Assembly (NCBI RefSeq): GCF_024298765.1
Contig: NZ_CP101210.1
Source of the DNA: Escherichia coli
GTDB lineage: Bacteria > Pseudomonadota > Gammaproteobacteria > Enterobacterales > Enterobacteriaceae
Direction: 5' to 3' (one strand)
Length of the DNA stretch: 64,000 nt
Positions 12,001 to 18,000 of this stretch are shown in pieces. A program made the position numbers. The number at the start of each line of letters is the position of its first letter. Position 1 is the stretch's first letter.

Positions 12001-15000
12001 TTCTGCGCCGACAGTTATACCCATAAAGAATAATGGTGAATCTTGTCATCGCCAGGATGAATAAACATTGTTCATGGCAACTTATATGACTTTTTCATTA
12101 AAGCAATCAGGGAGAGCAATGAGTAAACACGACACCGACACTTCAGATCAACACGCCGCGAAACGCCGCTGGCTTAATGCCCACGAAGAGGGGTATCACA
12201 AAGCGATGGGCAATCGCCAGGTGCAGATGATCGCCATTGGCGGCGCGATTGGTACGGGTTTGTTTTTAGGCGCGGGAGCCCGACTGCAAATGGCGGGGCC
12301 AGCACTGGCACTGGTCTATTTAATCTGCGGCTTGTTTTCGTTTTTTATTCTGCGTGCATTGGGTGAGCTGGTGCTACACCGCCCTTCCAGTGGCAGTTTT
12401 GTCTCTTATGCCCGTGAGTTTTTGGGTGAGAAAGCCGCTTATGTTGCAGGCTGGATGTACTTCATCAACTGGGCGATGACGGGGATTGTCGATATTACCG
12501 CCGTTGCACTGTATATGCATTACTGGGGCGCATTTGGTGGTGTACCGCAGTGGGTCTTTGCGCTCGCTGCGCTGACCATCGTTGGCACCATGAATATGAT
12601 TGGTGTGAAATGGTTTGCCGAGATGGAGTTCTGGTTTGCGCTTATTAAAGTGCTCGCCATTGTGACCTTTTTGGTCGTGGGTACAGTGTTCCTCGGTAGT
12701 GGTCAGCCGCTGGATGGCAACACCACTGGCTTTCATTTAATTACCGATAACGGCGGCTTCTTCCCCCACGGTTTGCTACCTGCGCTGGTGTTGATTCAGG
12801 GCGTAGTGTTTGCTTTTGCCTCCATTGAAATGGTGGGTACAGCTGCCGGAGAATGTAAAGATCCGCAGACCATGGTGCCTAAAGCGATTAACAGTGTGAT
12901 TTGGCGTATTGGCCTGTTTTACGTCGGCTCCGTGGTGTTGCTGGTTATGTTATTGCCGTGGAGCGCGTATCAGGCGGGGCAAAGTCCGTTCGTGACGTTT
13001 TTCTCTAAACTGGGTGTGCCGTACATCGGCAGCATTATGAACATTGTGGTGCTGACCGCTGCCCTCTCCAGCCTGAACTCAGGTCTGTACTGCACCGGAC
13101 GTATTCTGCGCTCGATGGCGATGGGCGGTTCCGCACCGAGTTTTATGGCGAAAATGAGTCGTCAGCATGTGCCGTATGCCGGGATTCTGGCGACACTGGT
13201 TGTGTATGTCGTCGGCGTATTCCTCAACTATCTGGTGCCGTCGCGCGTATTTGAGATTGTGTTGAACTTCGCGTCGCTGGGAATCATCGCTTCATGGGCG
13301 TTTATCATCGTGTGCCAGATGCGCCTGCGTAAAGCGATTAAAGAAGGCAAAGCAGCGGATGTCAGTTTTAAACTGCCTGGCGCGCCCTTCACTTCCTGGC
13401 TGACATTACTGTTTTTGCTGAGCGTCCTTGTGCTGATGGCGTTCGATTACCCGAACGGGACTTATACTATCGCGGCGCTGCCGATTATCGGTATTCTGCT
13501 GGTTATAGGCTGGTTTGGTGTGCGCAAACGCGTTGCTGAAATTCACAGCACTGCGCCAGTCGTCGAGGAAGATGAAGAAAAACAGGAAATTGTGTTTAAG
13601 CCTGAAACGGCGAGCTAATTGCAAAATTGCCCGGCTACGTGCCGGGCAAATTCAAATTACTGACGAAGGTGCCGGATACGGCGTGATAAAAGTCAGGCAA
13701 GTCTCTCCATTTTCACCCTCGCCATATCTATTACAGCGCAATACGAATCACATCGTCCGGCTGGGTAGCTTCCTGCTGTTTAGTGGATTTTTGTTTCACA
13801 CTGACATACAGCGTTTTGCCATCGGCAGACAGTGCCAGGCTGTTCGGATGAGTCGGCGTATCGAACGTTTTCACCACTTTATAGCTTTTCGCGTCAATCA
13901 CACTGACTTTACCTGCCTGACGATGCGTCACGTAGGCTTCATTACGCGCGGGGTTAAACAGCACAGCCAGTGATTCCGGTGCCGCAACCTTCGCCAGAAT
14001 ATTGCCATTACGGGTATCGACCACTAACACTTCTGCCGCTTTAGAGTCGGTGATAAATGCACGCTGCCTTGCGGTATCAAGGCTGATGTTGATAAAGAAG
14101 TGCTCTTTGCCGTCATCCAGCAGCTTTTTACGGCTGAGGATTTTATTGTCGGCGGTGTCGATGGTAATCAATTCGCCGTCAGCGTTAGTGGTGTAAAGAC
14201 GTTTGCCTTTGCTATCCAGCGCTAAACCGGTACTCATTTTACCGGTGTTCTGGATGGCGGTTTTCAGTTTGATATTCTCGCCATCAACGACCCAAATCAC
14301 GCTCTCTTTACCAATACCACTGATGTAAACGGTGTTCGTGGCATCGTCTGCCACCAGCTCACGCGGTTGCAGCGGGCGCACCTCTTCAGTGCGCTTACGA
14401 TCATCCAGCACCAGACGGCCTTTCACTTCGCCCGTTTTGGCATCTATCGCCGTGACCGCGCTGTTTACAGTGTTACCAAACCACAACGTCTGAGTCGTGT
14501 TATTGATGGTAGCACCAAACGGCTTGAGATCGTTATGGATCGCCTGCGTCACTTCCAGAGTAACCGGATCAAGACGATAAACCACGCCGCCTTTATCCAG
14601 TTTGCGGCTTTGCGAAGTGGCGAGCCACAGCGCGTTTTCTTGCTGGCTATAAGCCATTTCGTAGGCACCTTTACCTACCGCTTTACGCAGCATTTCTTCT
14701 GCGGCCTGCGTACTGAATGATGAAGCAACAAGCAATGAACCTAACAGTAATGAACCACGCAGGCGCGATGAAAACAGATGACGTAAATGCATGACGACTC
14801 CCTTTGATGAACCGATATTTTTGCTGCTTCACAATGCTTCGCTAAGCGTAATCATCGTTACGCTCTTGTTATAAATGGGAATGGTAATCATTATTTTCTC
14901 AAATGTGGAGCATTTCTTGCCGTTACGACTACAATTTTCTCAATTACTTAACATATCGTGCCGTTTCGTTTTCCATAAATTTACAATTTTATTACCATGA

Positions 15001-18000
15001 CGGTGTTTTCCCATTCTTAACCTGGCTTTTTTCATGAAGATTTTTTCCGTCCGACAGACCGTTTTTCCCGCGCTGCTTGTCCTTTCCCCCACCGTTTTTG
15101 CCGCTGATGAACAGACCATGATTGTCAGTGCCGCGCCGCAGGTGATTTCAGAACTGGATACCCCAGCAGCCGTGAGCGTGGTGGATGGCGAGGAGATGCG
15201 CCTGGCAACACCGCGCATTAACTTGTCTGAATCACTGACTGGCGTGCCTGGTTTGCAGGTACAAAACCGGCAGAACTATGCGCAAGATTTACAGCTGTCG
15301 ATTCGCGGATTTGGCTCCCGCTCCACTTACGGAATTCGCGGTATTCGCCTGTATGTTGACGGTATTCCCGCTACCATGCCCGACGGACAAGGGCAGACAT
15401 CCAATATCGATTTAAGCAGTGTGCAAAATGTGGAAGTGCTGCGTGGCCCCTTCTCTGCTCTGTATGGCAACGCGTCTGGCGGTGTAATGAATGTCATCAC
15501 CCAGACCGGACAACAGCCACCAACCATTGAAGCCAGTAGTTACTACGGCAGTTTTGGCAGCTGGCGCTATGGGCTGAAAGCAACGGGCGCAACGGGAGAC
15601 GGCACACAGCCAGGCGATGTCGATTACACCGTCTCAACCACGCGCTTTACGACCCACGGCTATCGTGATCATAGTGGCGCACAGAAAAATTTAGCCAATG
15701 CCAAACTGGGCGTTCGCATTGATGACGCCAGCAAATTAAGCCTGATTTTCAATAGTGTGGATATCAAAGCAGATGACCCAGGTGGGCTAACCGAAGCAGA
15801 ATGGAAGGCGAATCCACAACAAGCGCCCCGTGCAGAACAGTACGACACGCGAAAAACCATCAAGCAAACTCAGGCTGGGTTGCGCTATGAACGTAGCCTG
15901 AGCGCGCAAGATGATATGAGTGTAATGATGTATGCCGGAGAGCGAGAAACGACCCAGTACCAGTCAATCCCCATGTCCCCGCAACTTAACCCGTCACATG
16001 CGGGCGGCGTGATTACCCTGCAACGCCATTACCAGGGGATAGACAGCCGCTGGACACACCGTGGTGAATTGGGCGTTCCAGTCACGTTCACAACCGGCCT
16101 GAACTACGAAAACATGAGTGAAAACCGCAAGGGTTACAATAACTTCCGCCTGAATCGCGGCGTGCCGGAATACGGGCAAAAAGGTGAGTTGCGCCGCGAC
16201 GAACGCAATTTGATGTGGAACGTCGATCCCTATTTACAAACCCAGTGGCAACTGACCGACAAACTTTCGCTGGATGCTGGCGTGCGCTACAGCTCTGTGT
16301 GGTTTGATTCCAATGATCATTACGTTACTCCGGGTAACGGCGACGACAGCGGTGATGCCAGTTATCACAAATGGCTACCAGCCGGATCGTTAAAATATGC
16401 AATGACCGATGCCTGGAATGTCTATCTGGCAGCCGGGCGCGGTTTTGAAACGCCGACGATTAATGAGCTGTCTTATCGCGCTGATGGGCAAAGCGGTATG
16501 AACTTTGGTTTAAAACCCTCCACCAACGATACAATTGAGATCGGCAGTAAAACGCGTATTGGTGATGGGCTGCTTAGTCTCGCATTGTTCCAGACCGACA
16601 CCGATGATGAAATTGTTGTCGATAGCAGTAGCGGTGGGCGTACGACTTACAAAAATGCCGGAAAGACCCGTCGTCAAGGCGCTGAACTGGCATGGGATCA
16701 ACGTTTCGCGGGAGATTTTCGCGTAAAAGCGTCCTGGACCTGGCTTGATGCGACCTATCGCAGCAATGTTTGCAATGAACAGGATTGTAACGGTAACCGG
16801 ATGCCAGGGATCGCCCGTAATATGGGCTTTGCGTCGATAGGTTATGTACCGGAAGATGGCTGGTATGCAGGTACGGAAGCGCGTTATATGGGCGATATTA
16901 TGGCAGATGATGAAAATACGGCCAAAGCGCCGTCTTATACTCTCGTCGGCTTATTCACCGGGTATAAATACAATTACCACAATTTAACTGTGGATTTATT
17001 TGGTCGTGTCGATAATTTATTCGATAAAGAATACGTTGGCTCTGTCATTGTCAATGAGTCAAACGGGCGATATTACGAACCTGCGCCCGGGCGAAATTAT
17101 GGTGTCGGCATGAATATTGCGTGGCGATTTGAGTAATTACCTTGATGCCCGGTATTTGCCGGGCATTTAATTTAACGATTGTATTGCTGGTATAAAATAG
17201 CAATATTTTGTTGCATAATTTCAGCAAGACAATGTCTGCATCCCTCTTTGTCTTTTGCTTTTAACGCGGCGAGTAATAGACGATAGTTTTCTATACGCTC
17301 CCGTAATTCCGCTGGATTAATCGCTTCATAGAGATAATGTAAACCAGGTCCCATCCTGACCCACAGTTGCTCAATCATCTCACACAGGATGGGCATATTT
17401 GAACGATGATAAATCGCTAAGCGAAATAGCCTGTTCGCATTAATGATTTGTTCCATGTCGCCCTTTTCTTGCGCCTGCTGTAATTTCTCGAGCAATTCCT
17501 CGAGTTCCGCCAGGTCTTGCGGGGTGAGGTTTTCAACAGCCAGAGTAACTGCCATTAATTCCAGCTCGTAGCGGATCCGATTGATTTCGTCTAATTGACG
17601 TTTCCCCACTTCCGGAACTGTAAATGCTTGCGCTGGTGCGACAGAAAGCGCATTCACCGAAACCAGACGTAATAATGCTTCACGCACAGGTGTAATACTC
17701 ATACCTAATTGCTCCGCCAGATTTTTAGTAATCAGGCGTGCGCCAGGTTTTAATGCGCCAATACTAAGCTGATGTTTCAGGTCGTTCTCAACCTGCAGAG
17801 TCAAACTGACATGTTTCATTTTTTCCGTTCCAGGCATTTTAATTCCTTCGCGTGTTTTCTGTCCAACCCTGCCTGCATGGCAGAAGGAGTTCACCTGGTG
17901 TATTAAAGTGAATAATCATAAACCACTCACCTTTGTTGTTATTAGCAGCAGAACAATGACGTGGTTAGTTAATTAAAGCTGAAAATAAGCTTTTTGCCTG

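What the first reader, a model, noticed from the sequence alone, without database searches (positions are those of the whole stretch)
14793..15033. Candidate Fur operator in the yncE/yncD divergent promoter
GGGAATGGTAATCATTATT contains an exact TAATCATTAT core and ~15/19 match to the Fur consensus. It sits between a periplasmic beta-propeller gene and a TonB-dependent receptor gene, both plausible iron-regulated targets.
Basis: partly seen in the sequence, partly recalled or inferred. Interest (0 to 1): 0.3.

Follow-up and report, generated by a model that had tools for sequence, protein, structure and literature searches.

The report
Known Fur box of E. coli yncE
The motif is the real, already published binding site through which the iron sensor Fur shuts off the E. 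coli gene yncE, but it is not a shared switch for the neighbouring gene yncD (pqqU), which imports the cofactor PQQ rather than iron.

Summary
GGGAATGGTAATCATTATT lies at 14877-14895 in the 241-bp gap between yncE (minus strand) and yncD/pqqU (plus strand) of an E. coli chromosome. It matches the Fur consensus at 15/19 and is the best match in the window.

The sequence match alone is weak evidence (0.19 such matches expected per shuffled 64 kb). The other evidence is decisive:
- Published Fur ChIP-seq and ChIP-exo peaks in CFT073, W3110 and MG1655 map onto the motif.
- yncE rises 9- to 280-fold in fur mutants.
- The core TAATGATT...ATTC.CA is invariant in 43 enterobacterial species.
- Nine Citrobacter species that have lost pqqU keep the box.

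The box most likely overlaps the yncE -10 element and blocks RNA polymerase when iron is plentiful.

yncD is the PQQ importer PqqU and is unchanged in MG1655 fur mutants. It rises modestly in only 2 of 9 strains. Its likely promoter lies more than 60 bp from the box.

All of this is already known (Fur box reported in 2003; ChIP from 2014 to 2023), so interest is low.

In passing, I found a covarying 5'-leader hairpin and a conserved candidate RyhB pairing site just downstream.

The parts
14877..14895 (.).
   Evidence: The CFT073 Fur ChIP-seq summit at 1711868 lies inside the identical 19-mer at NC_004431.1 1711864-1711882.
14876..14896 (.). Full Fur operator: two overlapping 7-1-7 motifs offset by 6 bp (14876-14890 and 14882-14896), the classic arrangement for two Fur dimers
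   Evidence: W3110 ChIP-exo peak 1524928-1524940 corresponds to window 14873-14885. TAATGATT / ATTC / CA are invariant in 43 species.
14881..14886 (-). Inferred yncE -10 hexamer TACCAT (TACTAT in most other genera), inside the Fur box
   Evidence: Relaxed sigma-70 scan. The hexamer lies in invariant or near-invariant columns. No experimental transcription start was found.
14904..14909 (-). Inferred yncE -35 hexamer TCCACA, 17 bp upstream of the -10, within the near-invariant CTCCAC block
14845..14864 (-). Conserved 7-bp stem, 6-nt loop hairpin in the yncE 5' leader (AGCGUAA-CGAUGA-UUACGCU)
   Evidence: All 7 pairs show changes on both sides. 93.7% of cells are paired versus 33-52% in slid controls, and 0/500 shuffles reach this. 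RNAalifold recovers it. It shows that transcription starts upstream of 14864.
14823..14842 (-). Candidate RyhB pairing site in the yncE leader (GCGAAGCAUUGUGAAGCAGC), pairing with RyhB nt 41-59
   Evidence: Duplex energy -20.1 kcal/mol; 3.5% of shuffles do as well. RyhB sequence verified. The GGAAGC.ATGT..AGC block is conserved. RyhB activation of yncE is published.
14798..14804 (-). yncE Shine-Dalgarno sequence AAGGGAG
   Evidence: Read directly from the sequence; conserved
13731..14792 (-). yncE coding sequence (353 aa, periplasmic 7-bladed beta-propeller): the gene controlled by the box
15034..17136 (+). pqqU (yncD) coding sequence (700 aa, TonB-dependent PQQ importer): the divergent neighbour, not a demonstrated target
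14970..14998 (+). Inferred pqqU core promoter (-35 TTTCCA at 14970-14975, 17-bp spacer, -10 TACCAT at 14993-14998; alternative -10 TACAAT at 14982-14987)
   Evidence: conserved blocks in 67 loci that contain pqqU. No experimental transcription start.

Best explanation
The motif is the Fur operator of the yncE promoter.

- **When iron is sufficient:** Fe2+-Fur, probably as two dimers on the overlapping 7-1-7 motifs at 14876-14896, sits on the spacer and -10 hexamer of the yncE promoter (-35 TCCACA at 14909-14904, -10 TACCAT at 14886-14881) and excludes RNA polymerase.
- **When iron is scarce:** Fur leaves and yncE is transcribed at roughly 10 to more than 100 times the repressed level.
- **RyhB arm:** Fur also represses the small RNA RyhB. 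Once made, RyhB adds a further 3- to 8-fold post-transcriptional increase in yncE, probably by pairing with leader positions 14842-14823, just 3' of a conserved 5' hairpin.
- **pqqU:** the box does not act as a direct operator for pqqU.

**Shown:** Fur occupancy at this site under iron-replete conditions, Fur-dependent yncE expression, and conservation of the box.
**Inferred:** the exact -10 and -35 elements, the occlusion mechanism, the two-dimer stoichiometry, and the RyhB pairing site.
For: **Occupancy**
- The CFT073 ChIP-seq summit (1711868, height 845) falls inside the identical 19-mer at 1711864-1711882.
- The W3110 ChIP-exo peak 1524928-1524940 lies 81-93 bp upstream of the yncE ATG at 1525021, which is window 14873-14885.
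- The MG1655 peak 1521238-1521250 maps to the same relative position and was seen only under iron-replete conditions.

**Function**
- yncE RNA in fur- versus wild type: 147-fold in CFT073, log2FC 3.10 in MG1655, 8.14 in W3110, and 3.6-5.5 in six other strains.
- YncE protein is raised in a fur mutant (PMC5120174).
- yncE is Fur-bound and RyhB-enhanced in K-12 (PMC4676285).
- A Fur box in its promoter has already been reported (PMC8896160, citing McHugh 2003).

**Conservation**
- The box lies 78-88 bp upstream of the yncE ATG in nearly all of 78 loci from about 20 genera.
- It is the strongest footprint in the intergenic region.
- TAATGATT, ATTC and CA are invariant in 43 species.
- The 61 bp around the box are present in 5410 of 5426 E. 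coli genomes, all at 95% identity or more.

**Assignment to yncE**
- Nine Citrobacter species lack pqqU but keep the box, the -35-like block, the hairpin, the RyhB site and the SD.

**Geometry**
- The covarying leader hairpin at 14864-14845 shows that this stretch is transcribed, so the box lies within about 12-32 bp upstream of known transcript.
- The best conserved promoter candidate places the -10 inside the box.
Against: - No experimentally mapped transcription start for yncE could be retrieved. The -10/-35 assignment rests on 4/6 + 4/6 hexamer matches plus conservation.
- The strict promoter scan found nothing on the yncE strand.
- The 15/19 match alone is expected about 0.19 times per 64 kb by chance.
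- The MG1655 coordinates needed an inferred offset between genome versions and a correction for a one-row shift in the published table.
- The original McHugh 2003, Seo 2014 and Baba-Dikwa 2008 papers were not available to read.
Confidence: 0.93

Rival explanations
1. Shared bidirectional operator: the single Fur box directly represses both yncE and the divergent pqqU/yncD promoter, as happens in the fepA-fes or fepB-entC intergenic regions.
For: - In the nine-strain Fur study, yncD rises in fur mutants of W3110 (log2FC 2.95, P = 2.7e-51) and 042 (log2FC 2.02).
- The W3110 peak is assigned to both transcription units.
- The CFT073 peak table lists yncD_1 as well as yncE next to the same peak.
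Against: - No change in MG1655, which has the same K-12 intergenic sequence (log2FC 0.12, P = 0.39).
- yncD is absent from the regulon in 7 of 9 strains.
- Specialist papers state it is neither Fur-regulated nor iron-induced.
- PqqU transports PQQ, not iron.
- The conserved pqqU promoter candidates start at least 60-70 bp from the box, so the box would centre near -119 relative to the TSS inferred for the -10 TACCAT candidate (about 15005), too far for occlusion.
- The box persists where pqqU has been deleted.
- The W3110 effect (8-fold) is small next to the 280-fold rise in yncE, so it could be indirect.
Confidence: 0.12
2. Indirect coupling: Fur does not touch the pqqU promoter, but the very strong yncE transcription released in fur mutants stimulates the divergent pqqU promoter, for example through negative supercoiling generated behind RNA polymerase. 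This would give a strain- or condition-dependent, modest iron response of pqqU.
For: - Among the three strains whose yncD values I read, the effect on yncD is largest where yncE derepression is largest (W3110, log2FC 8.14) and absent where it is smallest (MG1655, log2FC 3.10).
- The two promoters are divergent and roughly 130 bp apart.
Against: - This is pure inference; no experiment addresses it.
- Strain 042 shows a yncD effect with only intermediate yncE derepression (5.51), while other strains with similar yncE values (W 5.30, BL21 5.22, CFT073 5.07) are not listed for yncD.
- Global secondary effects of fur deletion are an equally good explanation.
Confidence: 0.1
3. Chance AT-rich match with no function, or a site for a regulator other than Fur.
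For: A 15/19 match is expected 0.19 times per shuffled 64-kb window, and the intergenic region is AT-rich (36.5% GC).
Against: - Three independent ChIP datasets place Fur on it.
- There is invariant conservation across about 20 genera.
- Only 0.28% of shuffles of the intergenic region reach 15/19.
- yncE expression depends strongly on Fur.
Confidence: 0.01

Closest known systems
The published Fur box / Fur binding site of the E. coli yncE promoter (McHugh et al. 2003, as cited in PMC8896160 and PMC4666370; ChIP-exo/ChIP-seq in PMC10164565, PMC4676285, PMC7157518)
   Same: It is the same locus and the same site. The published peak coordinates map onto the 19-mer in CFT073 and W3110 and, with an inferred offset, in MG1655.
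   Different: Nothing substantive. This analysis adds the two-register 7-1-7 reading, the cross-genus footprint and the Citrobacter pqqU-loss comparison.
Bidirectional Fur-controlled intergenic regions of the enterobactin cluster (fepA-entD / fes, fepB / entC, fepDGC / entS)
   Same: Divergent gene pairs with Fur boxes between them. The same ChIP-exo study lists peaks in these regions.
   Different: In those regions both divergent operons are iron-uptake genes, and in CFT073 both members of each pair rise 21- to 676-fold in a fur mutant. Here only yncE responds consistently. There is a single box placed next to the yncE promoter, and the partner gene imports PQQ rather than iron.
cirA: Fur-repressed transcription combined with RyhB-activated expression
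   Same: yncE shows the same dual logic: Fur represses it, and RyhB (itself Fur-repressed) raises its mRNA and translation. The literature explicitly pairs the two genes. In CFT073, yncE rises 147-fold in fur- but only 18-fold in fur- ryhB-.
   Different: The pairing site and mechanism for yncE were not found mapped in the papers I could read. The site proposed here (14842-14823) is a prediction. No conserved RBS-sequestering helix was detected, so the mechanism may differ from the shiA-type anti-antisense model.

Membership tests
Fur operator (Fur box) of the E. coli Fur regulon | Sequence match to the 19-bp consensus GATAATGATAATCATTATC, or to overlapping 7-1-7 motifs | tested here: met
   - 15/19 to the consensus; best in the window.
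- 11/14 and 10/14 in two 7-1-7 registers offset by 6 bp; 10/13 to the ChIP-exo motif.
- 0.28% of intergenic shuffles reach 15/19.
Fur operator (Fur box) of the E. coli Fur regulon | Fur occupancy in vivo, dependent on iron | tested here: met
   Published peak coordinates were mapped onto sequence here:
- CFT073 summit inside the 19-mer.
- W3110 peak overlapping it.
- MG1655 peak at the same relative position, with binding condition 'R' (iron-replete only).

No new experiment was done.
Fur operator (Fur box) of the E. coli Fur regulon | The adjacent gene changes expression in a fur mutant or under iron limitation | tested here: met
   From the literature:
- yncE log2FC 3.1 to 8.1 in 8 strains.
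- 147-fold in CFT073.
- 16-fold under iron limitation.
- Protein raised in a fur mutant.
Fur operator (Fur box) of the E. coli Fur regulon | The operator overlaps core promoter elements, so that Fur occludes RNA polymerase | tested here: inconclusive
   - The conserved candidate -10 TACCAT lies inside the box, with -35 TCCACA 17 bp upstream.
- The covarying hairpin shows transcript from 14864 onward.
- No mapped transcription start or footprint was available.
Fur operator (Fur box) of the E. coli Fur regulon | Conservation of the site in orthologous promoters | tested here: met
   - Present at the same distance from the yncE ATG in nearly all of 78 loci.
- Invariant core in 43 species.
- Present in 5410 of 5426 E. 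coli genomes.
Shared (bidirectional) Fur operator serving two divergent iron-regulated genes | Both divergent genes are derepressed in fur mutants | tested here: not met
   - pqqU/yncD log2FC is 0.12 (not significant) in MG1655.
- It is listed as Fur-responsive in only 2 of 9 strains.
- It is reported as not Fur-regulated and not iron-induced.
Shared (bidirectional) Fur operator serving two divergent iron-regulated genes | The operator lies within or next to both core promoters | tested here: not met
   The conserved pqqU promoter candidates (14958-14998) begin at least 60 bp from the edge of the box at 14896. This is based on inferred promoters, not mapped ones.
Shared (bidirectional) Fur operator serving two divergent iron-regulated genes | Both genes function in iron acquisition or homeostasis | tested here: not met
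   - PqqU imports PQQ.
- It does not support growth on iron sources (PMC7193533; bioRxiv 10.1101/2022.06.07.495086; PMC12124388).
- NCBIfam assigns it to the PqqU equivalog.

The most novel reading that the evidence does not exclude
Fur occupancy at the yncE box has a real but indirect, strain- or condition-dependent influence on the divergent PQQ importer gene pqqU (8-fold in W3110 and 4-fold in 042 fur mutants). One possible route is transcription-coupled supercoiling from the massively derepressed yncE promoter. PQQ scavenging would then be loosely tied to iron status.
Probability: 0.12. Interest if true: 0.3.

Novelty: already known. Interest (0 to 1): 0.07.

Why it matters
It matters little as a discovery. 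yncE has been a textbook-level member of the core E. coli Fur regulon since 2003, and its Fur site has been mapped by ChIP in several strains.

The check does three useful things:
- It corrects a tempting inference, that a TonB-dependent receptor next to a Fur box must be iron-regulated. The receptor here is the PQQ importer PqqU.
- It shows by comparative genomics that the box belongs to yncE alone.
- It delimits the whole yncE control region: Fur box over the promoter, a covarying 5' hairpin, and a candidate RyhB site. This could help anyone dissecting how RyhB activates yncE, or using YncE as a vaccine or diagnostic antigen expressed under iron limitation.

Tried and rejected
- **Strict sigma-70 scan:** it found only a plus-strand hit inside the yncE leader and a weak terminator-like hairpin. 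Neither helped with the promoters. I replaced it with a relaxed scan read against conservation.
- **RNA duplex prediction with full-length RyhB and the whole leader:** it gave an uninformative all-over pairing, with 7% of shuffles as good. I repeated it locally with the RyhB core.
- **Rfam search of 14700-15150 at E <= 1:** no family matched.
- **Anti-antisense model for RyhB activation:** the single-sequence fold pairs the RyhB target region with the early coding region. RNAalifold on 32 species recovers only the 5' hairpin and no conserved RBS-sequestering helix, so this model has no support.
- **Original papers not held:** Baba-Dikwa 2008 (PMC2564877) and Seo 2014 (PMC4167408) could not be read, McHugh 2003 was not found, and Beauchene 2015 has no supplement held.
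- **yncE transcription start or RyhB pairing site:** no paper giving either was found.
- **Alternative yncE -10, TATAAC (14874-14869):** rejected because it lacks the final T, has no usable -35, and is not conserved.
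Full report
**1. What is in the sequence**

The 19-mer GGGAATGGTAATCATTATT occurs once in the window, at 14877-14895.

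NCBIfam equivalog models identify the two proteins as the 7-bladed beta-propeller YncE and the TonB-dependent receptor PqqU, formerly YncD. Pfam agrees. The DNA is 100% identical to several E. coli chromosomes, where these genes carry the same names.

It is the only match of 15 or more in the 64 kb.

**2. Is it more than chance?**

On sequence alone, only weakly. Dinucleotide shuffles of the window yield 0.185 matches of 15/19 or better on average, and 17% of shuffles have at least one. Only 0.28% of 5000 shuffles of the 241-bp intergenic region reach 15/19. The significance therefore comes from where the match sits.

Under the 7-1-7 model the site is two overlapping motifs offset by 6 bp: 14882-14896 (11/14) and 14876-14890 (10/14, and 10/13 to the ChIP-exo-derived motif TGAnAATnATTcTCA). 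This is the classical two-dimer architecture of a 19-bp Fur box. That attribution to the Baichoo and Helmann model is my own background knowledge.

**3. Experimental evidence mapped onto the sequence**

- **CFT073.** The Fur ChIP-seq peak table of Banerjee et al. 2020 (PMC7157518) lists a summit at 1711868, height 845, next to yncD_1 and yncE. In NC_004431.1 the identical 19-mer lies at 1711864-1711882, so the summit falls inside the motif.
- **W3110.** In Gao et al. 2023 (PMC10164565) the ChIP-exo peak 1524928-1524940 lies 81-93 bp upstream of the yncE ATG at 1525021. This corresponds to window 14873-14885.
- **MG1655.** In that sheet the gene column is shifted by one row relative to the peak column around P39-P45. 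After correction, peak 1521238-1521250 belongs to yncE. It is flagged as already present in the earlier Seo et al. dataset and is bound under iron-replete conditions only. Its offset from the W3110 peak (3690 bp) matches that of neighbouring shared peaks (3692-3695 bp). Together with the yncE coordinates in NC_000913.3, this puts it at the same 81-93 bp upstream position.
- **Expression of yncE in fur- versus wild type.** It rises 147-fold in CFT073, falling to 18-fold when ryhB is also deleted. Log2FC is 3.10 in MG1655, 8.14 in W3110, and 3.6-5.5 in six further strains.
- **Other support.** YncE protein is raised in a fur mutant (PMC5120174). Beauchene et al. 2015 list yncE as Fur-bound and RyhB-enhanced. 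Two papers state that a Fur box in the yncE promoter, and Fur repression of yncE, were already reported by McHugh et al. 2003.

**4. Comparative evidence generated here**

A scan of one genome per species returned 80 yncE loci from about 20 enterobacterial genera.

- In nearly all of them the best Fur-box match upstream of yncE is the orthologous site, 78-88 bp from the ATG.
- In a 79-sequence alignment the box is the most conserved block of the intergenic region.
- In a curated 43-species alignment, TAATGATT, ATTC and CA are invariant, and a CTCCAC block 17 bp upstream of the TACYAT hexamer is nearly invariant.
- Within E. coli, the 61 bp around the box are present in 5410 of 5426 complete genomes, all at 95% identity or more.

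Nine Citrobacter species have no pqqU within 3 kb upstream of yncE (no tblastn hit at E <= 1e-3). In eight of them curA or an mcbR-like gene lies upstream of yncE on the same strand. In the ninth (L009) only a curA fragment about 2.4 kb upstream was found, and the closer 470-aa minus-strand ORF was not identified. All nine retain the CTCCAC block, the Fur box, the leader hairpin, the RyhB-complementary block and the SD. This natural deletion experiment assigns the box to yncE.

**5. Mechanism**

The best conserved promoter candidate on the yncE strand is -35 TCCACA (14909-14904), a 17-bp spacer, and -10 TACCAT (14886-14881). This places the -10 and most of the spacer inside the Fur box.

A 7-bp hairpin at 14864-14845 shows changes on both sides at all seven pairs. 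Its cells are 93.7% paired, against 33-52% in slid controls, and 0/500 shuffles reach this. That stretch is therefore transcribed as RNA, and the transcription start lies upstream of 14864, that is, within or just downstream of the box.

The inferred mechanism is classical promoter occlusion by Fe2+-Fur. No mapped transcription start or in vitro footprint could be retrieved, so this step remains an inference.

**6. The pqqU half of the claim**

- YncD is now PqqU, the high-affinity TonB-dependent importer of pyrroloquinoline quinone.
- It does not contribute to growth under iron limitation. It is described as neither Fur-regulated nor iron-induced, and Hantke and Friz state the same.
- In MG1655 its fur-/wild-type log2FC is 0.12, P = 0.39.
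- In CFT073 it is a frameshifted pseudogene.
- Conserved pqqU-proximal blocks suggest a promoter at 14970-14998 (TTTCCA, 17 bp, TACCAT; or -10 TACAAT at 14982-14987). This is at least 60-70 bp from the box.

Against a flat 'no', the nine-strain dataset lists yncD as Fur-responsive in W3110 (log2FC 2.95) and 042 (log2FC 2.02). W3110 and MG1655 are both K-12, and yncE derepression is far larger in the W3110 dataset. I therefore regard this as more probably an indirect or dataset-dependent effect than direct repression, but it is not excluded.

**7. Side findings**

Immediately 3' of the hairpin, leader positions 14842-14823 (GCGAAGCAUUGUGAAGCAGC) are complementary to RyhB nt 41-59. The duplex energy is -20.1 kcal/mol, and 3.5% of shuffles do as well. 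The RyhB sequence was verified against K-12. The block GGAAGC.ATGT..AGC is conserved across genera. This fits the published RyhB activation of yncE.

RNAalifold finds no conserved helix that would sequester the ribosome-binding site, so how pairing activates expression is unclear. No Rfam family matches the region.

**8. Verdict**

The feature is already known and well characterised, so its interest as a discovery is low.

Noticed in passing
window 14845-14864 (minus strand): A 7-bp stem, 6-nt loop hairpin in the yncE 5' leader with strong covariation across 43 enterobacterial species. All 7 pairs change on both sides, and 93.7% of cells are paired versus 33-52% in slid controls. It matches no Rfam family, and its function is unknown (mRNA 5'-end stability or a role in RyhB action are guesses).
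   Followed up: yes
window 14823-14842 (minus strand): A conserved block complementary to the RyhB core (nt 41-59), -20.1 kcal/mol. It is a candidate pairing site for the published RyhB activation of yncE. I found no mapped site in the papers available. No conserved RBS-sequestering structure was detected, so the activation mechanism is open.
   Followed up: partly
L009, L010, L012, L014, L017, L019, L020, L024, L078 (upstream of position 3001): Nine Citrobacter species have lost pqqU. In eight, curA or an mcbR-like gene now lies upstream of yncE on the same strand; in L009 only a distant curA fragment was found. About 150 bp of the yncE control region, including the Fur box, is retained.
   Followed up: yes
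L030, L036, L038 (Pseudescherichia vulneris, Escherichia sp. ESNIH1, Enterobacteriaceae UBA7338): In these loci the Fur box sits only 39-43 bp from the yncE ATG. The alignment shows that L030 and L036 have lost the leader hairpin and the RyhB-complementary block (L038 was not in the alignment). This suggests the RyhB arm of regulation has been lost there.
   Followed up: no
window ~15143-15179 (inside pqqU CDS); 13/19 consensus match at 15114-15132: The MG1655 ChIP-exo table of PMC10164565 lists an additional iron-replete Fur peak (1520944-1520980) about 109-145 nt inside the yncD coding sequence. It is flagged as absent from the earlier Seo dataset. It lies just beyond a weak 13/19 Fur-like match. 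The gene column of that sheet is shifted by one row relative to the peak column around P39-P45.
   Followed up: partly
pqqU, window 15034-17136; data for W3110 and 042: yncD/pqqU is derepressed 8-fold (W3110) and 4-fold (042) in fur mutants but unchanged in MG1655, even though the two K-12 strains share the locus. The discrepancy is unexplained; it could be an indirect effect, coupling to yncE transcription, or differences between datasets.
   Followed up: partly
ansP, window 12068-13618 (+), convergent with yncE: In the MG1655 fur-mutant dataset ansP falls (log2FC -1.39, P = 4.6e-7), but it does not change in W3110 (-0.07). Interference from read-through of the derepressed convergent yncE transcript is a conceivable cause.
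   Followed up: no
L001 1-326 (NC_004431.1 1709622-1711725): In uropathogenic strain CFT073 pqqU is annotated as a frameshifted pseudogene, while the Fur box and yncE are intact and strongly Fur-regulated.
   Followed up: no
window 14881-14888 (minus strand) and 14991-14998 (plus strand): The octamer ATTACCAT occurs in both inferred -10 regions (yncE and pqqU), in opposite orientations. Only the yncE copy scores as part of a Fur box. This is probably coincidence.
   Followed up: no
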